From: Candidatus Dojkabacteria bacterium
GTDB taxonomy: Bacteria > Patescibacteriota > Dojkabacteria > B142 > OLB20
Length of the DNA: 64,000 nt
Assembly (NCBI GenBank): GCA_035444565.1
Contig: DAOMOX010000001.1
Location: forward strand, 386,335-450,334
Direction of reading: 5' to 3'
The notes under the pieces: model-generated
Database searches by the model: none
Seen by the model: only the letters and a program-made list of their open reading frames with translations
Told to the model about the DNA's origin: nothing
Made by a program: the position numbers and the translations under genes
Shown: positions 13,367 to 57,070 of the stretch, piece after piece
Numbering within the stretch: the stretch's first letter is position 1
Layout: every line of letters begins with the position of its first letter

Positions 13367-14623
13367 TTATTTGCCAATATACTCTTTTCCAAAATAAGGA
13401 ACGAGTGCTTTCGGAATCCTAATTGATCCGTCTTTTTGTTGGAAATTCTCCATGATTACAATTGGAATTCTTGATGTAACTAAGGCTGTTCCATTTAACA
13501 TGTGTACATATTCGTTTCCTTTTTCAGTTTTTACTCGGATGTTAAGGTTTCTAGCTTGAAAATCATCGGTATTCGATGTTGAGGTTATCTCTCCATAGTC
13601 ACCTCTGCCAGCCATCCATGCCTCAAGATCGTATTTTCTTGATGCAATTGCACCTAAATCACCACTACACATTTCTAATACTCTATATGGAATCTCAAGC
13701 GCTTGAGTTAGTTCTTCCTCTACTCTTAAGATTTCTTGGTGCATAGCTTCAGAATGTTCTGGCAGACTGTAAATGAACATTTCTAATTTAGTGAATTGAT
13801 GTACTCGATACAATCCTTTCGAGTATTTTCCATAAGCACCTGCTTCTTTTCTAAAGCAGTGGGAAACTGCAGCATACTTGAGTGGTAAATCTTCAGCTTT
13901 CAAAATCTCATCTGCGTGTAATCCCGCCATTGTGACTTCTGCAGTTGCGATTAAACCCAAATCTTCTCCGTCAATCTCGTATATTTGAGCTTCATCGCCT
14001 TTTGGTGCATAACCAGTCCCTAGATAAAAACGAGATTTTGCCATATCAGGGGTCATCACAAGTGTGAAGCCTTTTTGTTCTAAGAAGTTAATTCCAAATT
14101 GAAGTAATGCAAGCTCAAGTCGAACAGCATCATTTTTTAGAAAGTAGAACTGAGAACCACTAACTTTAGCTCCAGCTTCAAAATCTAACATATCGTGGAT
14201 TTTCCCTAATTCGATGTGGTCTTTAGTTTCGAAATCGAAATTTGGGATTTTTCCTACTTTACGAAGCTTTACATTATCATCCTCATTTTTTCCAATTGGA
14301 ACTTCGGGTCTGTGTATGTTCGGGATGTTGTTAATTAGCTGATTCCACTCGCGTTCAAGCTCAACTAAATCATCTTCGACTGATTTTATAGCATCTTTAA
14401 TTTTCTTCCCTTCTTCGCGCAGTGCTTCAAAGTCATTTGATTCCTTGCCTGTCTTTGCAAGTGTGTTTTTTTGTTGGTTTAAGTCTTCAAGTCTAGCTTG
14501 TGCCTCCATAAACTTCTTGTCGACATCCAACCATCTCTCTACAACCTGTGGATCCATTCCTCTTTCTGTTGTATTCTTCTTTACCAACTCCTGATTTTTT
14601 CGAATAAATTTTGGATTTAACAT
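13367..14623 (-). CDS. serS: seryl-tRNA synthetase
   Basis: N-terminal coiled-coil tRNA-binding arm and class II core motifs. Full length 418 aa. Confidence 0.95.
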   Translation of the reverse strand: MLNPKFIRKNQELVKKNTTERGMDPQVVERWLDVDKKFMEAQARLEDLNQQKNTLAKTGKESNDFEALREEGKKIKDAIKSVEDDLVELEREWNQLINNIPNIHRPEVPIGKNEDDNVKLRKVGKIPNFDFETKDHIELGKIHDMLDFEAGAKVSGSQFYFLKNDAVRLELALLQFGINFLEQKGFTLVMTPDMAKSRFYLGTGYAPKGDEAQIYEIDGEDLGLIATAEVTMAGLHADEILKAEDLPLKYAAVSHCFRKEAGAYGKYSKGLYRVHQFTKLEMFIYSLPEHSEAMHQEILRVEEELTQALEIPYRVLEMCSGDLGAIASRKYDLEAWMAGRGDYGEITSTSNTDDFQARNLNIRVKTEKGNEYVHMLNGTALVTSRIPIVIMENFQQKDGSIRIPKALVPYFGKEYIGK

Positions 14624-14639
14624 AATTAATTATTAATAA

Positions 14640-14900
14640 ATAAAAAAAAGTCCCTATGTATATTTACAGAGTAAACATACACAAGGACTCTTTCCGAAAT
14701 TGCGGAACAGCGGTGCCACCTATTTTCCCAATTATTTAGATTGGACTCTTTTAGAAATATTTAATTTTATGGAATCAGTCGATCGACTGTTTTTCCTTCA
14801 AAAAGCTATCTCATTAATGGTTCGCGTACAATACTGGGTAGCTTTTTTCTGTGTTGAAGAATTAGTTAAATGATATCAGTAGTAAGATTTACAGTCAATG
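14640..14900 (-). promoter_or_regulatory. T-box-like leader with sigma70-like promoter and intrinsic terminator upstream of serS
   Basis: Minus-strand promoter TTGACT-N17-TATCAT (plus 14870-14898). Minus-strand RNA contains 'AAUAGGUGGCACCGCUG' (plus 14704-14720), close to the T-box consensus AGGGUGGNACCGCG. Then a small hairpin UUCCG-CAAUUU-CGGAA. Then terminator hairpin GAGUCCUUGUGUAUGUUUAC/GUAAAUAUACAUAGGGACU plus U9 (plus 14642-14695), just before the serS ATG. Confidence 0.6.
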
Positions 14901-14947: not shown

Positions 14948-15736
14948 TTAGAAAGTTTGGTTACAATTGCTACATAAAACTTCGGATAAGATTTGCTTTT
15001 CCATCTTAAGAATTTCATATAGAGGATTGGTCCAGGATAAATGTAATTCATCAAGGAAATAATCAGCTTTTAATTTTTGGATTTTGGGAGTTTCTCGATA
15101 TCGTGGGTTCAATACAATCTCCTCACGAGCATTTTTCCTAATACAATAGTAGGCAAGACCACCTTCTTTTCGCAGTAGGTTGTAGTCGGCATGTGAATGC
15201 GTTTTATTAATTTTTAAAAAGATAACAGGGAAATCTTGCGTATTGATAAAGGTAAAGAAGTAACCTTTTGGAATCGCACACTTTTGTCCTTGGCTTACTT
15301 TTATAATGTAGGCTTTTTCTACATAAGTATCAAACTCGAATTCATCGGTTGGGGGCTTGTTCTTTTGCATTATTATTGTCAACTTACCATATAGTACTTC
15401 AACTATTGTTGTATAACTCCCGTTGGAACTCATCATTGGGGAGTAATATATATGCGACTTTATATACTCAATTCCAAGCAGACCAGCAGGGAGGTAAATA
15501 ATATCAAGATTAACCTCTGAATCTGCTAGATAATTATCGTCATGATGGTATACGGAATTGTACTCGTCATAAACATCCTTTGGGTAACTCAGGGACTTAT
15601 TTAATAGTGTTGGAAGGAGACTTGCGAGACTAACTGTTTGGGGTTGGTTGGTTACAATATCTTCTGACAGGAGCAGAGTATTATTCTTTGTATCCAGACT
15701 TATCGATAAATTACAATTATCTAGCAAAGTTACCAT
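14948..15736 (-). CDS. hypothetical protein (possible cupin-like fold)
   Basis: 262-aa ORF with no convincing motif. Minus-strand promoter TTGACA-N19-TATAAT upstream, at about 15766-15800. Confidence 0.45.
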   Translation of the reverse strand: MVTLLDNCNLSISLDTKNNTLLLSEDIVTNQPQTVSLASLLPTLLNKSLSYPKDVYDEYNSVYHHDDNYLADSEVNLDIIYLPAGLLGIEYIKSHIYYSPMMSSNGSYTTIVEVLYGKLTIIMQKNKPPTDEFEFDTYVEKAYIIKVSQGQKCAIPKGYFFTFINTQDFPVIFLKINKTHSHADYNLLRKEGGLAYYCIRKNAREEIVLNPRYRETPKIQKLKADYFLDELHLSWTNPLYEILKMEKQILSEVLCSNCNQTF

Positions 15737-15921: not shown

Positions 15922-17826
15922 TTAGTAGGTTTTTATGGATTTTATAATCTCGGAAACAACATTTGGGTCTACTAGCGTAGATGTGTCGCCCAAATCGCCT
16001 GTCTCCCCTTGTGCAATTTTTCTGAGTATTCTACGCATAATCTTTCCAGATCTCGTTTTTGGAAGTCCTTTGACAAGCAATATTTTGTCCGGTTTGGCAA
16101 TAGGTCCGATTATTTTTGAAACGACATTTTTAATCTCTTCTGTGAGTTTATCTAAGTCTGATATTTCCTCTGTTGAGATTATAAAGGCAAAGATACCTTG
16201 TCCTTTAATTGGATGTGGGTAAGCAACTACTGCGGATTCGATAATACTTTGGTGTTCGTTTATCGCACTTTCAATTTCTGCTGTTCCCAATCTGTGTCCC
16301 GAAACATTGATTACATCGTCAACACGCCCGATGATGCGGAAATTCCCATTAATGTCTTTTTTGCATGCATCGCCACTAAAGTATAATTTTGGAAATCTAC
16401 TAAAATAGTTCATCCTGCATCTTTCGTGATCTCCATATGTTGTTCTAATAATCCCCGGCCATGGGGATTTAAAACATAATAGACCTTCTTTTTCGTCTTC
16501 AAGAATTTCTTTCCCTTTTTCGTCAACAATTATTGGTTGAATACCAGGTAGGGGATGTCCTACCCAAGATGGTGTTTCTGGAGAAAGTCCTGCAAGGGAA
16601 GACAACATAATACCTCCAGTTTCTGTTTGCCACCAAGTATCTACTATGGGACAGCGTTTCTTTCCTACTTTCTCGTGATACCACTTCCAGGCTTCTTCGT
16701 TTATAGGTTCACCCACGCTTCCGAGGACTTTTAGCGAAGGCATATCATATTTATTAACAAATTGATCACCTTGGGCCATCAATGAACGAATTGCTGTAGG
16801 AGCCGTATAAAACTTCGTTACATTATGTTTTTCTATCACCTCCCAGAACCTACTTGCATCCGGCCAGGTAGGAACTCCTTCAAACATTATGACTGTAGCA
16901 CCATTTAGTAGTGGGCCATAAATCATGTAACTATGACCGGTAATCCATCCTACATCTGCAGTACACCAGAAAATATCATCATCATGGTATTGGAAAACAT
17001 TTAAGAATGTATAATAAGCATATATCATATATCCAGCTATTGTATGCACCACACCTTTTGGTTTCCCCGTAGAGCCCGATGTGTAAAGGATAAATAAGTT
17101 ATCTTCGCTATCCATGATTTCTGGTTCGCAACTGCTACTACTGTATTTAATCTCATCATGCCACCATGAGTCTCTGCCTTTCATCATATTAACTTCAATA
17201 CCGGTCCTTTTGAGTACAATAACATTTTTAATACTAGGGCTTTGTTCTAGTGCCTCGTCGGCGATTTCCTTCAGGTTGATTGTTTTTTCACCCCTGAATA
17301 ATCCGTCAGAAGTTATTAACAAAGTACAGTCCGAGTCATTAATTCTTTCTTTTAATGAATTTGCAGAGAAACCGGCAAAGACAACTGAATGAATAGCTCC
17401 AATTCGTGCACAGGCTAATACTGCAAAAGTAAGTTCGGGAACCATGGGCATGTAGATGCATACTCGATCACCCTTTTTTATGTTTTTTGACTTTAAAACG
17501 TTTGCGAATCTTCCGACCTCGTTTGTCAATTGATTATAACTAAACTTCCTGACACCCTCCCTAGGGTCATTGGGTTCCCAAATTAAGGCAATTTTTTCTG
17601 GATGAGTCTTCGTATTTCGATCAAGTAGGTTTTCGGTAATGTTCAATTTCCCCCCTTTGAACCATTCGACTTTGGGTGTCTCGAATTCCCATGACAGAGC
17701 TTCGTCCCACTTTTTATGCCAAGTGAATTCTTCTGCTATTTTTGACCAGAATTTTTCAGGACTTTCTATACTTTCTTTATAAATTTCTTCATACTCTTGC
17801 CAACTTGTAATTTGGTTTGTTTGCAT
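15922..17826 (-). CDS. acs: acetyl-CoA synthetase (AMP-forming)
   Basis: Canonical N-terminus 'YEEIYKESIESPEKFWSKIAEEF'. AMP-binding motifs 'YTSGSTGKPKGV' and 'TWWQTETGG', and C-terminal 'SGKIMRR'. Confidence 0.95.
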   Translation of the reverse strand: MQTNQITSWQEYEEIYKESIESPEKFWSKIAEEFTWHKKWDEALSWEFETPKVEWFKGGKLNITENLLDRNTKTHPEKIALIWEPNDPREGVRKFSYNQLTNEVGRFANVLKSKNIKKGDRVCIYMPMVPELTFAVLACARIGAIHSVVFAGFSANSLKERINDSDCTLLITSDGLFRGEKTINLKEIADEALEQSPSIKNVIVLKRTGIEVNMMKGRDSWWHDEIKYSSSSCEPEIMDSEDNLFILYTSGSTGKPKGVVHTIAGYMIYAYYTFLNVFQYHDDDIFWCTADVGWITGHSYMIYGPLLNGATVIMFEGVPTWPDASRFWEVIEKHNVTKFYTAPTAIRSLMAQGDQFVNKYDMPSLKVLGSVGEPINEEAWKWYHEKVGKKRCPIVDTWWQTETGGIMLSSLAGLSPETPSWVGHPLPGIQPIIVDEKGKEILEDEKEGLLCFKSPWPGIIRTTYGDHERCRMNYFSRFPKLYFSGDACKKDINGNFRIIGRVDDVINVSGHRLGTAEIESAINEHQSIIESAVVAYPHPIKGQGIFAFIISTEEISDLDKLTEEIKNVVSKIIGPIAKPDKILLVKGLPKTRSGKIMRRILRKIAQGETGDLGDTSTLVDPNVVSEIIKSIKTY

Positions 17827-28771: not shown

Positions 28772-31700
28772 TTAAAGAGCACAAGAAGCTTTATTGTATC
28801 TTTGTGCAAAACTTTGGAAGTCAACTATGTCGACCTTTCCTAGTTTGTCTACATCTTTTCCTCCACACTCTCCATAGCTAATATGGTCAGTTTCCGTATC
28901 ATCACAAAGTTTCTGATAGTAGGAAGCAAAACCAACTTGGTATCCACCAAAATCGTATATGCTAAACCATCCATCTCCATTCACATCCGCTGGTCCACAA
29001 ATGAATCCTACTAATGGGTTTGTCGGTGTAACTGTTGGTTCCTCTGATACTATTGGAGTATCGCTAGGAACAGGAGTATCACTTGGGACAGGAGTATCAC
29101 TTGGTACAGGTGTATCGCTTGGTATAATTGTCCCTGTAGGTGTATCACTAGGTATAATTGTTCCTGTAGGTGTTAGTGTAGGTGTTGGTGTGTTAGAACT
29201 TGTGACATCAGGTCCGGTTACTGTGAAATCCGAGGTGCAGGTATTGATTTTTGTATTGGTACCTGTCTGCACTTCCGCTGTATTTGTGATTACATCACCT
29301 TTTTTACCCTTGATTTTCATAACATATGCAATTCTCTTAACTCCTTCAGGTACTTTACACTCTAGGTAGTTACCTGTTATCAAAGCTGGAGTATCACCTG
29401 GAGAGACATCCTCTTTGGTCATGAGGAAGTAGAAACCTCCGATTAATAATACTACACCTGCTATTACTAATCCCCCTAGATAAGGTTTTTCTTTTAGTGT
29501 TGAATTAGTAATACTATCTTTATTTTTGTAAAGAATGTAATAGGTTACTCCACCAGATAGTATTGAGAAGAGTATGAAACTAAACAGTACTGATCCGCGG
29601 GAAGTATAGACATCGGATATTCCTAGTACCGCTGATTGAACTTCTTGTGTCTTGAGTTCACAATATTTTGGTTTTGATACTAGTTCCATCTTTTCACTTA
29701 AGTCATCTCTTACGAGTACTGTTCCGTCAGGTCCAGGTGCTAGATCGTTCAAGACGACCTTGTATTTGACCTGTTCACCAGTCCATAGTTTGCTTGGTAA
29801 TTCCTGAACTTTTCTACATGTCAAAGCAGTAATGGTTGCAGGAGTGGGTGTTATTGATGGGCTAGGTGTTGTTGTTGGCTTCTGAATCACATTAAATGTG
29901 TATGTAGGACAGTCAGTGGTCATTCCACTACTGACGACTCTGGAATTAACTAAGATTGGAGTTCCAGGCGTTACATTGTCTTTAACTTTCAAATTAATTG
30001 TTAATGCGCCTCCAGTTAAGTTACATGTGTACTTATCTCCTGCCTCTGTCTTAGCAAAAGTACAAGCAGGGTTAGGGTTAGAGCCCATGTCTGTAGGTAC
30101 TTCTAGTTGAGTCGGTATGAAGAAATGTAGTGTGTGAGAGACTCCTTCATTGAAAGGTACTTTTGTATTTAGGTATGTCTGAACACCAATTCTGTTTCCG
30201 GGATAAGGATCATCATAATTGGTGTTTAATGTAATATTCCTACATTCAGCAGGTAAGTCTAACCTATCCAAATCGCTTACCGAAGTACTGGTTGATGCAG
30301 CTTCTTCTAAACTTGCTTCAGATCCATAAGAGACTGGAATCTGGAGGCTTTCAATGTCGGTGGATGCTTTTGTTGTAGTTGTATCTCTTTCGCATCTCTC
30401 AAAAGGAGTGGTTGAGTTAGGATTGAAATTACAAATGTAGTTCTCAATTACACCCAAGAACTGTGTTAAATATGACTGACTCATTTTCTTTTGGGTTCCT
30501 GAGTCAAAGACGTATGAATTTGATGAGAAATAATTATCTTTTGAAACATTTCTATCATCACTTTTCCATGGGGAACATGTGCTTACTCCTGGTTCCGTCG
30601 GGTAGGTGACACATTCGATTGACCAAAAGATATATGGTGGTGTTTTTGCATCCAAGACGTTTGTAAGGGTACGATATGCACCTTCTCTATAGTAAGTGGT
30701 GGTTTCAATCGATTGGATAGTGCTTACATTAGGTGCACCGACCTTACTCGCTTCCGTAAATGTCCAGTCTGTACAACTTGCAACATCTTGATTATCTAGA
30801 ATGTCACAACTCCTTGTATAGACTGTTTTCCCATCTTGAGAGAGGGCGGTATAGTAAAGGATGTTCCTTGTTAAATCATAATTTTCATACTTGCCGATTC
30901 TGTGGTCAATATCTAGTGATCGTAATTTTGAAATCACTAAATCGCCTGTTTGGATTTTTAGTGATTTTACTGAATGTTTTGTCCAAACTTCATCTTGGTA
31001 AGTGAAGTTGTTACACTTTGTAAAATCAACACCATCTGCTTTACTCTTGTCCATATTACAGCTTCTGTAGTAGAAGTTTTCTCCAGCACTATCGAGTACT
31101 ACTTGGGAGAAGTTGTCTGCTTGTGCTACAGGAGTTACAGGTGGCGTTACTACAACAGTAGGAGGTACAGTCGTTGTAGGAGGTATTGTGGTAGCAGGTG
31201 GAGCAACCGTAGTGGTAACAGCTTGAGCTAGTACCTCGGCCTGAATATTATCGTAATAATAACCCAGATTGTATGTATAATTCATTTCAGGCTTTAGAAC
31301 TATTCTAAAGCTTGTCGTATTTATATCTGTAGATGCAGGAATCTTAAGATCAAAAGTGTAAGTCTTCCAGCTTGCCGTCAAGGCTGTCTTTGGAATAGGA
31401 ATTTGTTGTAACCATCCAGACCCAACAGGGTGTTCTCTTTGTATGTATAGACCTTCTAGAGCTGGTGGTGGTTGATGATCACTGCTAGTGCTATGTGCTT
31501 TTGCGTTGAATTTTACTCGAATTGTTCTTCCACTTAAGTTTTGTCCTGTTTCAATCCAATGAGTAGAGAAATCAGTCTTGGTTTTATCACCATCTAGTTT
31601 TCTACCCAATGTAATATATTTCTTTCCATCGGAGCAAGGACCCCATTGATCGCAATCATGTACCTGAGTAAATGAAGTATCTACTCCTGCTCCATATGAC

Positions 31701-32914
31701 CAGCTCTTGTAGTCACCCCACTCAAAGGAAGAGTTCAAGATGATAGGTTTGAGTTCGGGAGAGCAATCACCTCCCGGACATGAGTTCGGTCCCCCATAAA
31801 CACCCAAATCAGATCGAGAGCCGTTCAAATCTTTAATGTTTGGGTCTCCGGCGTCGATGGCAGGGGAACCGGCTTGCAGTGCGAAGTTTGTTGCGCTTAC
31901 AAATTTAGGGTCTGCGTGGAGTGAGTCACAAAATTCATTAACACCGCAACTAGTGCCTTCCCCAGCATTCCCAAAGGTTAAATTGTACGCAAATTTGTCA
32001 TTTTCCTTAAAACCTGGAGTTAGTAAGTTGTATCCTCCGATCCCAAAGCCAAAAGAATTGTCAGTGTTTTTCTTATTATTGGTTAAGATGTTATTTAAAA
32101 CTGTAACACTTGGGTTATGAACGGCACCCTGATATATAGTAATACCTGATACTACATTAGAAGAAATAATATTATTTGTGATTAATGCATTTGAATTTTC
32201 AGACAAATAAATTCCATCATTTGGATTCGAAGTAATGATGTTATTAAAAATAGTTGTTTTGGAATTCTGATATGTTCGAATCGCAGCACCAATATTGTTA
32301 GAGAATGAGTTGTTTCTAATGGTGGCCTTGGCATTCATAGAAATTGAAATTCCATATCCAAGTCCACATGTATTCGTATTACTCTCAAAACAACTATCCT
32401 CATCTGTTTTCATTCCTATTATTTTTAAACCTTCAATATTAATGACTCCTCCATGTACGACAATACCTGAAAGTGTATGAGTACTATTAGTCCCATCAAG
32501 AACTACAGAACCTTCGCCTTTTAATGTTAATGTTCTGATAGAGGTTTCAGGAATGAAAATAAAAGCTTTGAACTTTTTTTCAATGGATTCCCCATACGGT
32601 GTATAATTATATGGTGTATATCCTGTTCTTTTGTATGTCCCAGCTTTCAATAATATAGTATCGCCACTTTTTGCTGCATCAACTGCTCTCTGGATATTAT
32701 CACCACCTACATATTGACAACCATTTTGTCCTGCTGTTCCTGTTGCACAAACAGTAATCAGGTTAACAGGCGTAGTCGCAGCTTCACTATCCTCCTGCTC
32801 TGTCCGCTCCGACAAATACCGAGCCAAAACTAGTGTGAAAATCATGAATAAGAAGAGGAACAAGACTAGCAATATAGTTACTATTTGCCTTCTTTGGAGA
32901 TTTGTCTTAAGCAC
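28772..32914 (-). CDS. giant surface protein with N-terminal signal anchor, right-handed parallel beta-helix (pectin-lyase-like), two internal TM helices, Pro/Thr-rich tandem linker and C-terminal dockerin-like domain
   Basis: 1380 aa. N-terminal TM 'IVTILLVLFLFLFMIFTLVLA'. Beta-helix repeats 'NNIITSNPNDGIYLSENSNALITNNIISSNVVSGITIYQG'. Mid-protein TMs 'VLFSFILFSILSGGVTYYILY' and 'LGGLVIAGVVLLIGGFYFLMT'. Repeats '(PSDTPV)n/(PTGTIIPSDT)n'. C-terminus 'DVNGDGWFSIYDF' plus 'DVDKLGKVDIVDFQSFAQRY' matches two dockerin Ca-binding repeats. Confidence 0.8.
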   Translation of the reverse strand: MLKTNLQRRQIVTILLVLFLFLFMIFTLVLARYLSERTEQEDSEAATTPVNLITVCATGTAGQNGCQYVGGDNIQRAVDAAKSGDTILLKAGTYKRTGYTPYNYTPYGESIEKKFKAFIFIPETSIRTLTLKGEGSVVLDGTNSTHTLSGIVVHGGVINIEGLKIIGMKTDEDSCFESNTNTCGLGYGISISMNAKATIRNNSFSNNIGAAIRTYQNSKTTIFNNIITSNPNDGIYLSENSNALITNNIISSNVVSGITIYQGAVHNPSVTVLNNILTNNKKNTDNSFGFGIGGYNLLTPGFKENDKFAYNLTFGNAGEGTSCGVNEFCDSLHADPKFVSATNFALQAGSPAIDAGDPNIKDLNGSRSDLGVYGGPNSCPGGDCSPELKPIILNSSFEWGDYKSWSYGAGVDTSFTQVHDCDQWGPCSDGKKYITLGRKLDGDKTKTDFSTHWIETGQNLSGRTIRVKFNAKAHSTSSDHQPPPALEGLYIQREHPVGSGWLQQIPIPKTALTASWKTYTFDLKIPASTDINTTSFRIVLKPEMNYTYNLGYYYDNIQAEVLAQAVTTTVAPPATTIPPTTTVPPTVVVTPPVTPVAQADNFSQVVLDSAGENFYYRSCNMDKSKADGVDFTKCNNFTYQDEVWTKHSVKSLKIQTGDLVISKLRSLDIDHRIGKYENYDLTRNILYYTALSQDGKTVYTRSCDILDNQDVASCTDWTFTEASKVGAPNVSTIQSIETTTYYREGAYRTLTNVLDAKTPPYIFWSIECVTYPTEPGVSTCSPWKSDDRNVSKDNYFSSNSYVFDSGTQKKMSQSYLTQFLGVIENYICNFNPNSTTPFERCERDTTTTKASTDIESLQIPVSYGSEASLEEAASTSTSVSDLDRLDLPAECRNITLNTNYDDPYPGNRIGVQTYLNTKVPFNEGVSHTLHFFIPTQLEVPTDMGSNPNPACTFAKTEAGDKYTCNLTGGALTINLKVKDNVTPGTPILVNSRVVSSGMTTDCPTYTFNVIQKPTTTPSPSITPTPATITALTCRKVQELPSKLWTGEQVKYKVVLNDLAPGPDGTVLVRDDLSEKMELVSKPKYCELKTQEVQSAVLGISDVYTSRGSVLFSFILFSILSGGVTYYILYKNKDSITNSTLKEKPYLGGLVIAGVVLLIGGFYFLMTKEDVSPGDTPALITGNYLECKVPEGVKRIAYVMKIKGKKGDVITNTAEVQTGTNTKINTCTSDFTVTGPDVTSSNTPTPTLTPTGTIIPSDTPTGTIIPSDTPVPSDTPVPSDTPVPSDTPIVSEEPTVTPTNPLVGFICGPADVNGDGWFSIYDFGGYQVGFASYYQKLCDDTETDHISYGECGGKDVDKLGKVDIVDFQSFAQRYNKASCAL
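29055..29168 (-). repeat. in-frame tandem nucleotide repeats (18-nt and 30-nt units) encoding Pro/Thr/Ser/Asp linker of the 1380-aa protein
   Basis: Plus strand 'ggagtatcgctaggaaca / ggagtatcacttgggaca / ggagtatcacttggtaca / ggtgtatcgcttggtataattgtccctgta / ggtgtatcactaggtataattgttcctgta'. Confidence 0.8.
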
Positions 32915-33064: not shown

Positions 33065-34537
33065 ATGGTAATAACTAGAATCGCACCAAGTCCTACTGGA
33101 AGTTTGCATATTGGCACACTAAGAACTGCATTGTTTAGCTATGCTTGGGCAAAAAAAAATAAAGGGAAATTCTTATTAAGAATTGAAGATACTGATCAAT
33201 CACGACTTGTTCCAGGGACAGAAGAAGAAATCGAAGAAATGCTAAAAATCTACGGCCTTGATTACGATGAGAAATCTAAACAAACCGAAAGAAAAGATAT
33301 TTATAAGAAATATGCAGAAGAATTAATACAGTTAGGACAGGCTTATTATTGTTTTGCATCAAAAGAAGAAATCCAAGAAGCTCGTGAAATAGCAGAAAGA
33401 TCCGGAGAACAGTTTAGATTTAGATCGCCTTATAGAGATTTTGATCTTGATAAAGCAAAGGAAAAGATAGAGTCTGGAGAGCCGTTTGTAATTCGTTTAA
33501 AAGTTGCGGAGGGCGAAGAATTTGAATTTGAAGATTTATTACAAGGGAAAATGCATTTCAAGAGCGAAGAAGTGGATGATACTGTCTTGCTTAAATCTGA
33601 TGGTTTACCCACATATCATTTAGCAGTTGTTATTGATGATCATTTGATGGGGATTACACATGTCATGCGGGGGGTTGATTGGGTGCCAAGTATCCCTAAA
33701 CACGTGTTGATTCACAGAGCTTTTAACTGGGAAATGCCAAAATATCTTCATTTGCCTCTCGTTCTTGATCCAGAAGGAGGGAAGCTCTCAAAACGCAAAG
33801 GAACTGTGGCTGCAAAAGATTTCCTAATACAAGGTTATTTGCCTGAGGCGATATTGAATTTCTTGATGTTATTAGGTTGGTCATCACCTATTAAACATGA
33901 GTTTGGAGAGAAAGAAAGGGAGATATTTAGTTTGGAGGAGTTTATAGAATTATTTGAATTGAAGGACTTGAATAAAAGCAGTGCAGTTTTCAATCGAGAA
34001 AAACTGCTTTGGTTTAGTCACCAGTACATGATGAACTTTAGTATCGATGAACTTCATAAAAGATACGGTGAATGGCATGCAAAATATAGCGAGGAAAAAG
34101 AACTCAGACTAAAAATTGCTGAGAAAGGGGAAAAATATTTAAAAGAGGTTCTGGAATTGGTACATGACAGAATCAAACTGTTAAGTGAAATAGACGAGTT
34201 AATAAAACTTTTCTATTTTGAACCAGAGAAAATAAAGTTTAGCGAATTTAAACAAATTAAGAATTTAAATGTTGATCAGACTTCGATAATTCTGAAATCT
34301 GTGGTGAGTGAATTAAAAGAAAAATCAGAAAATTTAAACGACTGGCCTCATGAAAAATGGGAAAAGTTTATGAGGAATCTTGCAGAAAAAAACGAACTTG
34401 GCGCGGGAAAAGTCTTTATGATATTAAGATTGGCGATTACCAGTTCACCTGCAACCCCACCATTATATGAAATCATGACAATTCTTGGTAAATCAGAAAT
34501 ATTGACCAGGCTCTCGAAGTATGTAGATAATATCTAA
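33065..34537 (+). CDS. gltX: glutamyl-tRNA synthetase
   Basis: HIGH motif 'PSPTGSLHIGTLRTAL' and KMSKS motif 'KLSKRKG'. C-terminal anticodon-binding domain. Confidence 0.92.
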   Translation: MVITRIAPSPTGSLHIGTLRTALFSYAWAKKNKGKFLLRIEDTDQSRLVPGTEEEIEEMLKIYGLDYDEKSKQTERKDIYKKYAEELIQLGQAYYCFASKEEIQEAREIAERSGEQFRFRSPYRDFDLDKAKEKIESGEPFVIRLKVAEGEEFEFEDLLQGKMHFKSEEVDDTVLLKSDGLPTYHLAVVIDDHLMGITHVMRGVDWVPSIPKHVLIHRAFNWEMPKYLHLPLVLDPEGGKLSKRKGTVAAKDFLIQGYLPEAILNFLMLLGWSSPIKHEFGEKEREIFSLEEFIELFELKDLNKSSAVFNREKLLWFSHQYMMNFSIDELHKRYGEWHAKYSEEKELRLKIAEKGEKYLKEVLELVHDRIKLLSEIDELIKLFYFEPEKIKFSEFKQIKNLNVDQTSIILKSVVSELKEKSENLNDWPHEKWEKFMRNLAEKNELGAGKVFMILRLAITSSPATPPLYEIMTILGKSEILTRLSKYVDNI

Positions 34538-49114: not shown

Positions 49115-50332
49115 TTAGTTCTTACTGACCTTTCTGACTTGCCACCATGTTAATGGGAATTGTAACAAGAGGAATATCGCAATTATTGGTGTTATCCCAA
49201 TCCCGACAAAGGTGTAAATCAATCCTGCAATTGTTGGTGCAAAAGCAGAACTAATAGAAAATATTGACTCATCAATCCCGTTTATTAAGCCTTGCTTGCG
49301 TTTCTCAACTGCTGAAGTAATTATTGATTTGAAAGTAGGAATACTTAGCGAAATCCCCAAGTTGGTTAAGTAAGAACAGGCGAAGAAAATTAGTAAAGAA
49401 TCTGCAAGGTACAGCAGAATTAATCCTGAAAATAAAAGGAATTGACCAATGAGGTATGTTCTGTCTTCTCCAAATCTCTCTGCGAATCTTCTCGAGAATA
49501 ATCCCTGATTGATTACCAAGAAGCTCCCAATGACTAAAAAGATAAGCCCTACTTGCTTAACATCTAGTTCGTAACGGTTCTGTACATAAAGAGTGAGTAG
49601 AGAAGTATATGCACTAAAGCTTAACGTGAAAAATATCCTGCGTGCGAAAAGATTTGAGAGATATTTGTCATCTAGTGACTTTATCTTCGCAAATATATTT
49701 AATTCTTTAATTAATTTGATTTCTAATTCTTTGTCTTGCTCGTCATGGGATTCGGGAACTTTGAAAATTATTAATAATAATGTTGCAAGGGAGATACTAA
49801 ACGCAAGAATAGCCGTTCCTAGGTAACCAATACTAAAAGAACTAGCGTATCCTCCTAAAACAGGTCCCACCACAAACGCTAAACCAAAGATTGCTCCAGA
49901 AATTCCGTAAATTTTTGTTCTTTCTTTTGTTTCTGTTTTATCTGCGATATAAGCATTTGCAACAGAGACATTTCCTCCAGTGATTCCATCAATAATTCTT
50001 CCGAAAATAATCACTAGAATTGGAAGTGAAATCCCAATCACTGGAACGTCTGGGATGAAATATGATATTCCAAATATTATCCAACTTACCATCGTTCCTG
50101 CTTGGCTTATAATCAAAATAGGGCGTCGACCGTACTTATCACTTAAGCTTCCTAAAATTGGAGCGCCAATAAACTGAAAAAATGCATATGCTGAAACCAA
50201 AAATCCATACATTAGTGGAGTTTCGTTGTATTGCTTGATTACAAACGGTAGAATAGGCAATACCACAGAGAAACCGAGTGCATTTACAAATGTAAGCAAC
50301 AAAATTGGATAGATTTCTTTTTTAATTTTCAT
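49115..50332 (-). CDS. MFS transporter
   Basis: MFS signature 'GSLSDKYGRRPILI' between TM2 and TM3. 12 TM. Confidence 0.85.
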   Translation of the reverse strand: MKIKKEIYPILLLTFVNALGFSVVLPILPFVIKQYNETPLMYGFLVSAYAFFQFIGAPILGSLSDKYGRRPILIISQAGTMVSWIIFGISYFIPDVPVIGISLPILVIIFGRIIDGITGGNVSVANAYIADKTETKERTKIYGISGAIFGLAFVVGPVLGGYASSFSIGYLGTAILAFSISLATLLLIIFKVPESHDEQDKELEIKLIKELNIFAKIKSLDDKYLSNLFARRIFFTLSFSAYTSLLTLYVQNRYELDVKQVGLIFLVIGSFLVINQGLFSRRFAERFGEDRTYLIGQFLLFSGLILLYLADSLLIFFACSYLTNLGISLSIPTFKSIITSAVEKRKQGLINGIDESIFSISSAFAPTIAGLIYTFVGIGITPIIAIFLLLQFPLTWWQVRKVSKN

Positions 50333-51069: not shown

Positions 51070-54000
51070 GTGACTAAAATCATGCCAAATGAGTATAAAG
51101 AAGTAGAAGAAGTTCTCTCAAAAGCGCTAAAGTCTGATCAGGATTTGAGACCTGATGCCAAAAGTGCAATGGATGAGAGAGTTAATAATACTATTCATAC
51201 TTTAAAAAACATGAAAAACGAAAACGTTCCAGAGAAAATTAGTTTTTTCTCAAAAGTTAAACTTGGTTTTTTTGCTACAAAAAAAAGAAGATTTGCCACA
51301 TTTTCTGTTGTCTCTCTTTTGTTACTCCCACTTATCATCATTACGCTTTTTGTTTTGACGAATGGGAATATTCCGATTTTCAGAAGGCAAGAAAATCTTA
51401 AAGCGGCAAGTGTCGATTTTGCGGCATCTAAAATTTCTGGAGATGGTGTGTCTCAAGATTCAGAATTTATCCTAAGAACTAAAGCGATTTATACAAATGT
51501 TGAATTGCAGGAAAAATTGAAGATTAGTCCTGCAATTAACTATGAGGTTAAAAAAATTTCCGAGGGATATAAGATATCACCGTTATCAAATCTTCAAAAA
51601 AATGTGCTTTATGAAGTCAAATTAGAGGATAGTGATGTGGATTTGGATTGGAACTTCCGTGTAGAACCCGGGTTTACAGTATTAGGTCACTCTCCAGCAG
51701 AAAACGCCCCAATCAATTCAGTGATTGAACTTAACTTTAATTATTCGGATATAGATTTAGATAGTATTCGTTCTGCATTCAAATCTAACCCTGTTATAAA
51801 TATTAAAGAAATTAAACAAGAAGGAAGAACTGTGATATTGATACCAGATAACCCTCTAACACTGAATTCTTCGTATTCATTGTATTTAAATAATACTGTG
51901 AAGAGAGAAAACGGTGAAAGTTTAAGTGTTCCGTATCAAGCTTATCTTTCTACCTATGACTCATCACAAGTGGATAACTACTCTCCTTCGATTTATTTCG
52001 GATCAACGGAAGGAAGAGAGAAATTGTTAGGATCGGAAAGAAAGGTTGCATTCAGCGTTTCTAATTATGTGTCGAATGTAAAAGGCAACGTGAAGATGTA
52101 TAAAGTTAAAAATGATATGTTCCTTGAGGCCACTAAAGAGTACTTTTCAGTAAATAGTTGGTATTCAACTTACCGTTTGGAAAGTAAGTACTTAGAAGAA
52201 ATAAAATCTGAAGAATTCACTCCTTCTCCCGATGTAGTTGTTACAGTTCCTGAAATTAATATGGGCGAAATCATTTACGTAGAAGCAAGTTACATGGGGG
52301 TTGTAAGAGGTGGTTATTATTTAACTACTGACTTATTAAGTCATATGACTTATATGCAAAATGAATTGGTATTAAATGTCTTTGATTCTCAAGGCAAAAT
52401 AATAAATGAAGGGACTGCAGATATTATTTACAAAGATAATAATAATCAAGTTCAATCAAAGTCTTTTCCAATTACAGGGATAGTTAGAATTCCTAAATCC
52501 GACTTGCCAGATCAGGATTCCATTTTGGGAGCACTGATTAATGCCAAGGGTGATAGGTTAATGTTAAGTATGACATCAAACTACCCACCAGGAACATATT
52601 GGTTTGGAGGTGATTACGAAGGTGATTCAGAATATAACAAAAACATCTTTAGTTACTTTATGATGGATAAACCTGTGTACACTGAAGGAGATAAGGTCAG
52701 ATTCAAGACCCAGTTTAGGTATTCAGAAGATTTTACTAGCTTCCAACCGTATGATGTTTCTGGACTTGAGTACGTGATTTACTATGGTGGGTCAGTTGTG
52801 GGTAAAGCGAAGCCCGAATATAACAAAGAATTAGGGTATATTACAGGAGAGTTCAACATACCAGGTGTGGGTGATAGCTATATGTCTGGGTCAATTCAGG
52901 TTGTGAGGGGTAATAACGTCATAGCTACAAAAAATTTCCCTATTCGGGAATATGTTAAACCCCAATATACGGTTTCTATTAGTGTTGATGATTCTAATAA
53001 AATATATCACCCAGGTGATGAAGTTGAATTTGCCGTAAAGGTGAATGATCTTGCAGGGAACCCATGGTCGGGGGGTGAAATCCAGGCAGACTTCGGATAT
53101 ACGGAGATGTATCGTTACTCTGGAATGAATATGACCAATTTGACTGCAAATAGCTATTTGACCAAATCAGTTGACAAAAAAACAGTTAAACTAGACTCAG
53201 GCGGCCATGTAAATCTTGTCTACAAAATAACAAACCCTGAAGTATCAGATACAAGCGACTTCTTCTCATCTGTCTTGCAGGTCAACATTGACAAACATGC
53301 AACAAAATCATATGGCGTTAAGTCAACCTTAGGAGACATTACTGTAATCGCAGAAACAACTGACAATAATGTGAGAAAGAAGTTGGGTGAAGAGGTTAAA
53401 ATCCAAGTCAAGACAGTAGATGTGCAAACTTTGACAGGTGTACCAAGTACTATAGACAAGATTGAGGTGGTTCGCCATTGGTCCGAGAAAATTCCAAGGA
53501 CATATTACAATTCAACTACACGCACCAACGAAACTACCTATGACTATGTTCAACATGAGGACCTGATAGAAACTCAGTACAATCTTAAAACTGATGATAA
53601 CGGTAATTTGGAATTGGTGAAGAAATATGACCAAGATGGTTCATACTTCTTTAGGTTTGAATTCAAAGATAGGAACAATAGACTGGTAAAATTCTATTCT
53701 TCGCTTTTCTACCTAAATGGTGATGACGATGATAGCAGTATACAGGACAATTCTCCAATAATTTACACAGATAAAAGTGTTTATGAAATTGGTGATAAGG
53801 TCAACGTTAGAGTTGAATTCCCAGATAATTTCTTGGATGGACGAGAAGCTTACATCTTCGTTTATAAAGATAAGATATACATGGAAGAGAAAATCTCGAT
53901 TACAGAGAATGTTTATAACTATTCCTATGATTTAACAAAAGAGCTTAGTCCGCAGGCAGGGATTCGGTTAGTTTATACTTTGCCAGTGAGCGACTTTGGT

Positions 54001-56433: not shown

Positions 56434-56742
56434 CATACTCATCTTTGTTTACCATAAATTGAGATTAAACAAAACTTGAGTTATGCTACAATTCCTTAGT
56501 AAGGAAGGGTGTCCAGCCTTCGTCAAGACTTCGGCTGGTAAACTGAGATTGTCCCTCCCTTCGATGAAGGGTGGGGTGAAGCCGAAAGAGTTCAAATAAT
56601 GGAAGGGTCGCATCCCTCTACCCCCTGATAAAGTTAGGGGTTCGAGGGACAAGTAGACTCAAGATAATAAGTAAAACCATTTTGGAAGGGTGTCTGAGTT
56701 TGCCCCGCCTTGGCGGGGTGAAGTCGAAAGAGTTTAAATATT

Positions 56743-56829
56743 GGAAGGGTCGCATAGTGGTCTAGTGCCCCGCTCTCGAAAAGCGGTATCGGGGAAACCT
56801 GATCGTGGGTTCAAATCCCACCCCTTCCG
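56743..56829 (+). tRNA. tRNA-Ser (anticodon CGA), class II with long variable arm
   Basis: Hand-folded cloverleaf. Acceptor GGAAGGG/CCCTTCC, discriminator G73, 3-bp D-stem GCA/TGC. Anticodon stem CCGCT/AGCGG with loop CU-CGA-AA. About 18-nt variable arm. T-arm GTGGG-TTCAAAT-CCCAC. No encoded CCA. Confidence 0.85.
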
Positions 56830-57070
56830 AGACTGTTGATGAATCGAACTAAGCGATGATGAAGCATACAGTCGTTGGGAACGGCCTTGCGCTGTTTCGC
56901 CACGATTAGATTCCGCAGAGCAAAACAAAACGTGGGCGGGAACAACCTGGCGCTGTTCCGTTCTACTTCGCTGAAGCTTCGTAGAGCATAGCTATTCTCT
57001 ATAAGTACAAGTTATATAATCCCCCTAGAAGTAATTTGAAAAATAAGATAAAGTTATCGAGAGGTGCTAT

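What the first reader, a model, noticed from the sequence alone, without database searches (positions are those of the whole stretch)
14640..14900. T-box-like leader upstream of serS
The 5' UTR is about 240 nt. From 5' to 3' it carries a strong sigma70-like promoter, then a near-consensus T-box sequence (AAUAGGUGGCACCGCUG), then a small helper hairpin. It ends in a long terminator hairpin followed by U9 directly before the start codon; this is the canonical tRNA-sensing attenuation layout. I could not confidently place the Stem I specifier loop by eye. Candidates: AGU-A within 'CCCAGUAUUG', or AGC in 'GAUAGCU'. T-box control would be noteworthy if this is a CPR-type genome, and the tRNA-Ser in the window is a potential ligand.
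Basis: partly seen in the sequence, partly recalled or inferred. Interest (0 to 1): 0.55.

Follow-up and report, generated by a model that had tools for sequence, protein, structure and literature searches.

The report
Unusual T-box leader before CPR serS
The RNA leader in front of the seryl-tRNA synthetase gene of this candidate-phyla-radiation bacterium is a real tRNA-sensing "T-box" switch, but of a previously undescribed build that lacks the lower half of the usual tRNA-binding arm and carries an invariant extra 11-base element.

Summary
A conserved promoter drives a leader of about 240 nt. The leader has a T-box core (AGG-UGGCACC-...-CCU) that overlaps a strong terminator with a U8 run, 18 nt before the serS ATG (14623). 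The genome is Candidatus Dojkabacteria (CPR). Rfam's T-box model scores only 26.4 bits against a threshold of 93, because Stem I is aberrant. The same leader occurs upstream of serS in 16 related CPR loci, with SerRS identity down to about 37%, or about 28% for one partial gene. Helices P1, P2 and A2 and the terminator arms all covary. The bulge base C matches G73 of tRNA-Ser. By promoter position, the RNA starts at the distal half of Stem I. An AG bulge (ACAGARA), a 5-bp helix and an apical UGAGA are present. There is no room for a K-turn or a closed specifier loop. The best candidate is UCC-A (14773-14770), in a conserved single-stranded linker; it appears as UCS-R in all 16 leaders. An invariant 11-mer, GUACGCGAACC, in an expanded apical loop is unexplained. 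Verdict: a new structural variant of a known kind of riboswitch, in a lineage where no T-box report was found.

The parts
14870..14898 (-). Sigma-70-type promoter: -35 TTGACT (14898-14893), 17-nt spacer, extended -10 TG (14878-14877), -10 TATCAT (14875-14870). The predicted TSS is at about 14863/14862.
   Evidence: One search finds 10 of 12 consensus matches with a TG. One search finds the same TTGACY-17/18-TGnTAnnAT in all 16 family leaders. In 11 of the 16, the -10 ends 7-9 nt before P1.
14794..14861 (-). Stem I domain, equivalent to the distal half of a canonical Stem I. Its parts are: P1 (14861-14854 / 14801-14794); the 5' AG bulge CACAGAAA (14853-14846); P2 (14845-14839 / 14808-14802); and the apical loop (14838-14809), which ends in UGAGA (14813-14809).
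   Evidence: P2 pairs in 52 of 52 cells, with 3-5 pair types per position. P1 pairs in 71 of 78 cells. None of 2000 partner shuffles reached either value. ACAGARA and UGARA match the published AG-bulge (AGAGA/AGAGAG) and apical-loop (GGUGNGA, GUUGGAA) consensus (PMC11404447, PMC8002221).
14819..14829 (-). Invariant 11-mer GUACGCGAACC, inside the expanded and mostly unstructured apical loop. Its function is unknown.
   Evidence: It is identical in all 16 leaders. It occurs once in the window. The apex has no stable fold, and the 11-mer has no consistent pairing partner.
14776..14789 (-). Variable 'Stem II' hairpin, a perfect 14-nt palindrome CAGUCGAUCGACUG. It is dispensable.
   Evidence: Searches show the hairpin. 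It is absent in L116/L117, and its length and sequence vary in the other leaders.
14765..14774 (-). Conserved single-stranded linker UUCCAUAAAA. The candidate specifier is UCC (14773-14771), followed by purine A (14770).
   Evidence: every leader has UCC-A (14 leaders), UCC-G (L083) or UCG-A (L109) just 3' of P1 or the Stem II hairpin. The flanking GGAA/UUCC pairing is not conserved. UCC and AGC are the known Ser specifiers (PMC8002221). The assignment is inferred, and cmscan aligns the same element to the F-box.
14728..14744 (-). Stem III (CCAAU/AUUGG), flanked by purine runs AAGAG on the 5' side and GAAAAUA on the 3' side.
   Evidence: It is present in most leaders and absent in L087, L090 and L111.
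14684..14724 (-). T-box sequence and antiterminator: A1 AGG (14721-14719) / CCU (14686-14684); 7-nt bulge UGGCACC (14718-14712); A2 (14711-14687), which includes the UUCCG/CGGAA hairpin.
   Evidence: One search gives the Rfam alignment of the 3' half. One search shows A2 covarying: GCU/AGU, ACUCU/AGAGU, GCC/GGU, AUCC/GGGU, GUCU/AGAU and GUUUUAG/CUAGAAC. The bulge is UGGC in 16 of the 17 loci listed and UGGU in 1.
14642..14692 (-). Intrinsic terminator hairpin (14692-14646) plus the U8 run (14649-14642). Its 5' arm overlaps the 3' strands of A2 and A1.
   Evidence: the 3' domain scores -26.6 kcal/mol as terminator against -6.0 as antiterminator. The terminator arms covary with the A2 3' strand across loci.
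13367..14623 (-). serS, seryl-tRNA synthetase (418 aa), the regulated gene.
   Evidence: Pfam; the protein is identical to Ca. Dojkabacteria SerRS HRN85776.1.
56742..56830 (+). tRNA-Ser(CGA), class II, with discriminator G73 and no encoded CCA. It shows the acceptor end that the UGGC bulge would pair with. It is probably not the isoacceptor that reads UCC.

Best explanation
The serS leader is a transcription-attenuating T-box riboswitch that senses uncharged tRNA-Ser.

Proposed mechanism:
- By default, the very stable terminator forms and stops transcription 18 nt before the ATG.
- When uncharged tRNA-Ser binds, its 3' GCCA end pairs with the UGGC of the 7-nt bulge. This stabilises the weak antiterminator (A1 + A2), which uses the terminator's 5' arm, and serS is then transcribed.

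The tRNA-docking half is a new structural variant:
- The transcript begins directly at helix P1.
- It carries only the distal, elbow-binding part of Stem I: the AG bulge ACAGARA, the 5-bp P2, and an apical loop ending in UGAGA.
- It has no K-turn and no closed specifier loop.
- The anticodon is most likely read by UCC-A, which lies in a conserved single-stranded linker just 3' of P1 or of an optional hairpin.
- The apical loop is expanded by 20-35 nt and holds an invariant 11-mer of unknown role.

Shown here: the sequence elements, their conservation, the covariation, the mutual exclusivity of terminator and antiterminator, and the match to the discriminator base.

Inferred: tRNA binding, the TSS, the platform fold, and the identity of the specifier.
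For: T-box core:
- Rfam T-box aligns Stem III and the antiterminator with high posterior probability (also L001, L002 and L116).
- The bulge is UGGNACC, with N=C in 16 of the 17 loci listed and N=U in one.
- All three tRNA-Ser genes found have G73.

The switch:
- The terminator scores -26.6 kcal/mol against -6.0 for the antiterminator, and the two share a strand.
- A2 and the terminator arms covary.

Family:
- The same leader lies upstream of serS in 16 loci from several CPR lineages.
- SerRS identity in those loci falls to 37% and to about 28% over a partial gene.
- It always lies upstream of serS. The one exception is L110, where two glyoxalase-family ORFs come first.

Stem I domain:
- P1 and P2 covary.
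- The ACAGARA bulge, a 4-7 bp P2 and the apical UGARA match the published interdigitated T-loop consensus.

Truncation:
- A conserved extended -10 promoter ends 7-9 nt before P1 in 11 of 16 leaders.

Specifier:
- UC(C/G)-purine is present in all 16 leaders at the same junction.
- Known Ser T-boxes use UCC or AGC.

Specificity to serS:
- gltX in the window has no T-box.
- No other T-box core with a terminator was found in 360 kb of related DNA.
Against: - Rfam RF00230 is far below its gathering score in every member, at 18-27 bits against 93.
- No K-turn/GA motif and no S-turn specifier loop (AGUA...GAA-NNN-A) could be found.
- The UCC-A element is embedded in a 10-nt conserved block that cmscan aligns to the canonical F-box. 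It could therefore be structural rather than a codon. Only one natural variant (UCG) exists to test codon-like behaviour.
- No tRNA-Ser(GGA) gene is available to confirm the ligand, because the window holds only tRNA-Ser(CGA).
- The TSS is predicted, not mapped.
[quoted passage not shown] The 'molecular ruler' geometry must therefore differ.
- Nothing was tested experimentally.
Confidence: 0.8

Rival explanations
1. It is a T-box, but the anticodon is not read at UCC-A. Either the specifier lies elsewhere, or this class has no codon-anticodon step. In the second case, tRNA-Ser would be selected through the invariant 11-mer GUACGCGAACC next to the elbow platform, for example by contacting the elbow or the long variable arm of this class II tRNA, together with the discriminator base.
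For: - The 11-mer is absolutely invariant across 16 leaders, while everything around it varies.
- It sits in an unstructured loop, next to the putative elbow platform.
- UCCAUA aligns to the F-box in cmscan, and the whole 10-nt block is conserved, not just the triplet.
Against: - No consistent complementarity between the 11-mer and the three tRNA-Ser genes was found. The only match is GAACC:GGUUC in the T-arm, which is buried in the folded elbow.
- All 16 leaders keep a UCN Ser codon followed by a purine at one junction.
- Every characterised T-box reads the anticodon (PMC7583486).
Confidence: 0.15
2. It is a canonical full-length T-box. Under this reading, transcription starts further upstream than predicted, and a normal proximal Stem I (K-turn and specifier loop) forms from sequence 5' of the putative promoter.
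For: - The TSS is only predicted.
- About 50 nt lie between the upstream gene's stop (14948) and the -35.
- Five of 16 leaders have 15-21 nt between the -10 and P1.
Against: - The -35, spacer and TG-extended -10 are conserved in all 16 leaders, with the -10 ending 7-9 nt from P1 in 11 of them.
- No GA motif or AGUA/GAA S-turn was seen upstream.
- The Rfam model either deletes Stem I or maps it inconsistently.
- There is no partner strand downstream for a proximal helix. In L116 the linker between P1 and UCC is only 8 nt.
Confidence: 0.04
3. It is a conserved terminator-based leader controlled by something other than tRNA, such as SerRS protein autoregulation, another protein, or a small ligand. 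Under this reading, the T-box-like sequence is a convergent or vestigial feature.
For: - The Rfam score is sub-threshold.
- Stem I is aberrant.
- The invariant 11-mer and the palindromic hairpins could be protein-binding sites.
Against: - The 7-nt bulge UGGNACC, helices A1 and A2, Stem III with flanking purines, the overlap with the terminator, and the N-G73 match are exactly the T-box discriminator architecture, and they are conserved with covariation.
- The AG bulge and apical T-loop motifs are also retained.
- There is no leader peptide: the only AUG in the leader is followed by a stop after two codons, as read directly from the sequence.
Confidence: 0.03

Closest known systems
Class I (transcriptional) T-box riboswitches of Firmicutes, Rfam RF00230, e.g. 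Bacillus/Clostridium serS and Paenibacillus serA Ser T-boxes
   Same: - Location: upstream of an aaRS gene.
- T-box sequence with the 7-nt UGGNACC bulge between helices A1 and A2.
- Stem III flanked by purines.
- A mutually exclusive intrinsic terminator with a U-run.
- The bulge N matches the tRNA discriminator.
- AG bulge (AGAGA-type) and apical-loop UGNGA motifs, separated by about 5 bp.
- A pyrimidine-rich strand below the AG bulge.
- A Ser codon (UCC) followed by a purine.
   Different: - No K-turn, no proximal Stem I helix and no S-turn specifier loop. The RNA appears to start at the helix below the AG bulge.
- The candidate specifier lies in an open linker, after an optional hairpin.
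[quoted passage not shown]
- The apical loop is 28-45 nt instead of about 12, and contains an invariant 11-mer.
- No Stem II S-turn or IIA/B pseudoknot is recognisable.
- It scores only 18-27 bits with RF00230, against a gathering score of 93.
Actinobacterial ileS T-boxes with 'ultrashort' Stem I (class II, translational; M. tuberculosis and N. farcinica structures 6UFG/6UFM)
   Same: They are a natural precedent for a T-box with a truncated Stem I, found outside Firmicutes and restricted to a single aaRS gene.
   Different: - The truncation is the opposite one. Actinobacteria lose the distal elbow platform and keep the K-turn, specifier loop, Stem II S-turn and pseudoknot. This family keeps the platform motifs and loses the proximal part.
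- The actinobacterial leaders regulate translation by sequestering the SD. This leader has a terminator.
glyQS-type minimal T-boxes (no Stem II or IIA/B)
   Same: A short single-stranded linker joins Stem I to Stem III and the discriminator. In some members (L116, L087, L090) the region between Stem I and the T-box is similarly minimal.
   Different: glyQS leaders have a complete Stem I with a K-turn and a closed specifier loop.

Membership tests
T-box leader (Rfam RF00230) | The covariance-model score reaches the curated gathering threshold of 93 bits. | tested here: not met
   There is no hit at the gathering threshold. The window scores 26.4 bits, E=6.5e-4 in a 601-nt scan. The relatives score 18.5-26.6 bits.
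T-box leader (Rfam RF00230) | A T-box sequence that forms an antiterminator: helix A1, a 7-nt bulge UGGNACC, and helix A2. | tested here: met
   The window has AGG / UGGCACC / GCU...AGU / CCU. A2 covaries across the related loci.
T-box leader (Rfam RF00230) | A mutually exclusive intrinsic terminator (transcriptional class) that shares a strand with the antiterminator. | tested here: met
   The terminator at 14692-14646, with its U8 run, overlaps the A2 and A1 3' strands. Energies are -26.6 versus -6.0 kcal/mol. The arrangement is conserved in the family.
T-box leader (Rfam RF00230) | The bulge N is complementary to the discriminator base (N73) of the cognate tRNA. | tested here: met
   N is C in 16 of the 17 loci listed and U in L114, which gives a G-U wobble. 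The tRNA-Ser genes in the window, L003 and L004 all have G73.
T-box leader (Rfam RF00230) | A K-turn (GA motif) at the base of Stem I. | tested here: not met
   There are no tandem GA motifs on either strand around P1. The conserved promoter places the 5' end at P1. [quoted passage not shown]
T-box leader (Rfam RF00230) | A specifier loop in Stem I: an S-turn (AGUA / GAA), then a codon for the cognate amino acid, then a purine. | tested here: inconclusive
No closed loop or S-turn was found. A Ser codon plus a purine (UCC-A, UCC-G or UCG-A) is conserved in all 16 leaders, in an open linker 3' of P1.
T-box leader (Rfam RF00230) | [quoted passage not shown] | tested here: inconclusive
   The sequence and spacing match. 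ACAGARA sits in an 8-11 nt 5' bulge, P2 is 4-7 bp, and the apical loop ends in UGAGA, UGAAA or UGUGA. The published consensus is AGAGA(G)/AGCGA and GGUGNGA/GUUGGAA. The 3D fold cannot be tested with these tools, and the apical loop is about 3 times the normal length.
T-box leader (Rfam RF00230) | Location upstream of an aminoacyl-tRNA synthetase or amino-acid metabolism gene. | tested here: met
   serS lies downstream in the window and in 14 other loci. L110 has glyoxalase-family ORFs first.
T-box leader (Rfam RF00230) | Read-through induced by uncharged cognate tRNA, but not by charged tRNA. | not testable with these tools
   This needs in vitro transcription or reporter assays.
Class II translational T-box (Actinobacteria ileS, ultrashort Stem I) | An SD-sequestering helix in place of a terminator; a Stem II S-turn and IIA/B pseudoknot; and a specifier in a short Stem I with a K-turn. 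| tested here: not met
   A strong terminator and U-run are present. No S-turn or pseudoknot is recognisable. The Stem II hairpin is variable, and it is absent in L116.

The most novel reading that the evidence does not exclude
CPR bacteria carry a third architectural class of T-box with three features.

1. The RNA starts at the distal half of Stem I, with no K-turn and no closed specifier loop.
2. The anticodon of tRNA-Ser is read by a bare UCC codon in a flexible linker.
3. An invariant single-stranded 11-mer (GUACGCGAACC), grafted into the elbow-binding apical loop, makes a new contact that compensates for the lost pre-organisation. That contact could be with the elbow or long variable arm of class II tRNA-Ser, or with a protein.
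Probability: 0.3. Interest if true: 0.8.

Novelty: new variant of a known kind. Interest (0 to 1): 0.62.

Why it matters
- Literature: T-boxes are described as a Gram-positive system, found mainly in Firmicutes and Actinobacteria. No paper in the searchable library links them to CPR/Patescibacteria.
- Detection: the standard Rfam model misses this family, so surveys based on that model, such as TBDB, would not list it.
- Biology: CPR cells have minimal genomes and depend on hosts for amino acids. A tRNA-charging sensor on serS would be one of their few known cis-regulatory RNAs.
- Structure: a natural T-box without a K-turn or closed specifier loop bears on an open question raised in the 2020 review, namely whether any T-box can function without a K-turn. 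It is the mirror image of the actinobacterial truncation.
- The 11-mer: an invariant 11-nt apical insertion points to a tRNA or protein contact that has not been described.

Tried and rejected
- **Rfam mapping of Stem I.** The model either deletes Stem I or maps canonical basal and specifier elements onto P2. I rejected this because P2 covaries as a helix.
AGU-A and AGC are rejected. The first is not conserved, and the second lies in helix P2.
- **K-turn at either junction.** Rejected, because there is no GA on the opposing strands.
- **Specifier in the Stem II loop (UCGA/AGCU palindromes).** Rejected, because the hairpin is absent in L116/L117, and L003 and L004 have no Ser codon there.
- **A GGAA/UUCC helix sequestering UCC (from the MFE fold).** It is not conserved in L089, L109, L110 or L116.
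- **Pairing partners for the 11-mer.** None is consistent. The cis match to the terminator 5' arm UUGUGUAU occurs in only about half of the leaders. A hairpin presenting the 11-mer is not conserved either.
- **Metagenome pattern scan.** Of 24 hits, 20 were chance matches in GC-rich coding DNA.
- **Viral-contig scan.** All 13 hits lacked a T-box.
- **Second GGTGGGACC at 49863.** It lies inside an ORF and is a chance match.
- **Trimmed 'core' alignment A3.** It was not register-consistent, so I did not use it to build a covariance model. No family CM was built. Covariation was counted by script on a manual segmentation instead.

Full report
**1. Observation**

The finding lies on the minus strand. 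serS is ORF 13367..14623 (-), 418 aa, with Seryl_tRNA_N and class II core domains.

Read 5'->3' on that strand, the intergenic region contains:
- a promoter, TTGACT (14898-14893), 17 nt, TG-extended TATCAT (14875-14870), matching 10 of 12 consensus positions;
- the T-box sequence AAUAGGUGGCACCGCUG (14724-14708);
- a small hairpin, UUCCG/CGGAA;
- a long terminator (14692-14646) with a U8 run (14649-14642);
- 18 further nt, then the ATG at 14623.

The region folds far better than shuffles, with z = -4.23. It holds 5 terminator-like matches where 0.3 are expected.

**2.

Rfam finds no T-box at the gathering threshold. In a sensitive scan of 601 nt, RF00230 is the only hit of E=6.5e-4. It scores only 26.4 bits against a threshold of 93. 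The 3' half is a T-box, and Stem I is not canonical.

**3. Organism**

- The SerRS is identical to proteins annotated Candidatus Dojkabacteria (HRN85776.1 and others), on a contig of up to 620 kb.
- The nearest species-level genome is a Dojkabacteria MAG at 93% identity.
- Dojkabacteria (WS6) is a candidate phylum of the CPR.

**4. Conservation**

- The four closest genome hits (61-93% SerRS identity) all carry AGGUGGCACC 80-105 nt upstream of serS. More distant CPR, planctomycete, spirochaete and Rubrobacter serS loci do not.
- Look-ups of further SerRS homologues added leaders from L081-L090 and L116/L117.
- Some relatives at 61-67% identity have short intergenic regions and no leader (L118-L121).
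- A gene-independent DNA pattern (11-mer...AGGTGGNACC) was scanned over metagenome contigs and returned 24 hits.
  - Twenty were chance matches in GC-rich coding DNA, roughly the number I had expected by chance.
  - Four were real: L114, L109, L111 and L110.
  - L114 has SerRS 91% identical to the window's.
  - L109 has SerRS only 37% identical.
  - L111 has a SerRS N-terminal domain about 28% identical over the part present.
  - In L110, two glyoxalase-family ORFs follow the leader before the contig ends.
- The family therefore spans deep SerRS divergence and is tied to serS.
- The other aaRS gene in the window, gltX (33065-34537), has no T-box.

**5. Discriminator half**

- All members have A1 (AGG/CCU), the 7-nt bulge UGGNACC and helix A2.
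- The outer pairs of A2 covary: GCU/AGU, ACUCU/AGAGU, GCC/GGU, AUCC/GGGU, GUCU/AGAU and GUUUUAG/CUAGAAC.
- The terminator 3' arm covaries with the A2 3' strand, as a shared-strand switch requires.
- N is C in 16 of the 17 loci listed and U in L114.
- The three tRNA-Ser genes available (window CGA; L003 and L004 GCU) all end in G73. UGGC:GCCA pairing therefore fits, and UGGU is also what a published Ser T-box uses (PMC8002221).
- In the window, the 3' domain scores -26.6 kcal/mol as terminator and -6.0 as antiterminator. The default is therefore termination.
- This half meets every sequence-level criterion of a class I T-box.

**6. Stem I half**

Comparative reading gives four parts:
- a base helix, P1, with a pyrimidine-rich 5' strand;
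- an unopposed 8-11 nt 5' bulge with invariant CAGA-A (ACAGAAA or ACAGAGA; CUCAGAGA in L004);
- a 4-7 bp helix, P2;
- a 28-45 nt apical region that ends in UGAGA, UGAAA or UGUGA immediately before the P2 3' strand.

The helices are well supported:
- P2 pairs in 52 of 52 cells, with 3-5 pair types per position.
- P1 pairs in 71 of 78 cells. The misses are register slips in my segmentation of L088 and L109.
- None of 2000 partner shuffles reached either value.

These features match the published description of the distal part of Stem I:
- an AG bulge (AGAGA, AGAGAG or AGCGA) in an 8-10 nt bulge;
- an apical loop with conserved G-G-U-G-x-G-A (GUUGGAA in a Ser T-box);

I therefore read this domain as the elbow-binding platform half of Stem I. 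The match rests on motif and spacing, and the 3D fold is inferred.

**7. What is missing**

- All 16 leaders have TTGACY, 17/18 nt, TGnTAnnAT.
- In 11 of them the -10 ends 7-9 nt before P1, so the RNA should start at P1. In the other five the gap is 15-21 nt.
- There is no GA/K-turn motif at either junction, and no AGUA/GAA S-turn loop.
- The Rfam model cannot place Stem I consistently.
[quoted passage not shown] It asks whether any T-box can function without one.

**8. Specifier**

AGU-A is absent from most members. AGC lies in P2 and covaries.

Scanning the region between P1 and the T-box shows one constant: UCC-A in 14 leaders, UCC-G in L083, and UCG-A in L109. It always lies 1-6 nt after the optional Stem II hairpin, or 8 nt after P1 in L116, which has no hairpin. 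All of these are UCN Ser codons followed by a purine, which is the canonical codon-plus-purine rule. UCC is a known Ser specifier.

The GGAA/UUCC pairing seen in the MFE fold is not conserved, so the element is single-stranded.

Caveats:
- The surrounding 10 nt (UUCCAUAMAA) are also conserved.
- cmscan aligns that element to the F-box.
- Only one natural variant exists.
- The window's tRNA-Ser(CGA) would read UCG, not UCC.

I put this assignment at about 0.55.

**9. Unexplained features**

(a) The 11-mer GUACGCGAACC (14829-14819) is identical in all 16 leaders.
- It lies in an apical region with no stable or conserved fold.
- It has no consistent partner in the leaders or in tRNA-Ser.
- Its position next to the putative elbow platform suggests an extra tRNA or protein contact, but that is speculation.

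(b) The optional Stem II hairpins are almost always perfect even palindromes. That means their 4-nt loops are self-complementary: GAUC, AGCU, UCGA, CCGG, CGCG and CUAG.

**10. Literature**

Full-text searches found no paper that combines T-box with Patescibacteria, candidate phyla radiation, Saccharibacteria or Parcubacteria. The only paper combining riboswitch with Dojkabacteria is unrelated. TBDB collected T-boxes with Rfam-type models, and those models would miss this family.

**11. Verdict**

This is a genuine T-box-type attenuator of serS in a CPR genome. By mechanism it belongs to the known kind. It fails several structural membership criteria of the canonical family: the Rfam threshold, the K-turn and the closed specifier loop. 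I rate it a new variant of a known kind, with interest 0.62.

Noticed in passing
window 14776-14789 (-); also L087, L089, L090, L003, L004, L109, L110: The optional hairpin between P1 and the UCC-A element is almost always a perfect even palindrome. Examples are CAGUCGAUCGACUG, CAGUGAGCUCACUG, AGGUCGACCU, CAAACCCGGGUUUG and ACCGACGCGUCGGU. The 4-nt loops are therefore self-complementary. Several contain UCGA or AGCU, each of which is a Ser codon overlapping a Ser anticodon. Possible causes are loop-loop dimerisation, a dimeric protein site, or template-switch mutation. None of these was tested.
   Followed up: partly
window 14624-14641 (-) and the same position in L081, L088, L090, L004: The A/U-rich stretch between the terminator U-run and the ATG (AUUUAUUAA...) is conserved between distant leaders. 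No Shine-Dalgarno sequence is visible before serS.
   Followed up: no
window 14681-14688 vs 14822-14829 (-); L081, L087, L109: The terminator 5' arm CUUGUGUAU is unusually conserved in about half of the leaders. It can form 8 bp, 3 of them G-U, with the first 8 nt of the invariant 11-mer. The match is absent in L004, L088 and L116, so it is probably not general.
   Followed up: partly
L114:5083-5093: One close relative (SerRS 91% identical) has UGGU instead of UGGC in the T-box bulge. This gives a G-U wobble with G73, as in the Paenibacillus Ser T-box.
   Followed up: partly
L110 (minus strand) 373-768 and downstream: In this metagenome contig the leader is followed by two tandem glyoxalase/VOC-family ORFs (131 and 134 aa) rather than directly by serS. 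The contig ends before any serS could be seen.
   Followed up: partly
L109 (minus strand), about 70-380 nt after the T-box: About 300 nt separate the terminator from the serS start. They contain two similar hairpin repeats: AAUAAUCCCGUACAGGACGCAGUCCUUGUUCGGGAUU and AAUAACCCCGUAUAAGACGAAGUCUUUGUACGGGGUU.
   Followed up: no
L111 (minus strand), linker between P1 and the T-box: The AUUCCAAAA element is duplicated. One copy lies inside a hairpin and one after it.
   Followed up: no
window 14948-15736 (-) and L081-L090, L116: A cupin-type glucose-6-phosphate isomerase gene (PF06560) lies immediately upstream of the serS leader in most family loci. This synteny is conserved. An acetyl-CoA synthetase-like gene (15922-17826) lies further upstream in the window.
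   Followed up: no
window 56742-56830 (+): The tRNA-Ser(CGA) gene does not encode the 3' CCA. The sequence after G73 is AGAC.
   Followed up: no
window 33065-34537 (+): gltX (GluRS) has only a 150-nt divergent intergenic region and no T-box motif. T-box control therefore appears restricted to serS in this stretch.
   Followed up: partly
window 51070-56391 (+) and 28772-32914 (-): Two very large ORFs (1773 and 1380 aa) were not examined.
   Followed up: no
L004:2815-2829: L004 has an extra 5' hairpin (CUAGUAACGCACUAG) between the predicted TSS and P1. It also has an extra hairpin (CUCAGUAUUACUGAG) after its UCCA.
   Followed up: no
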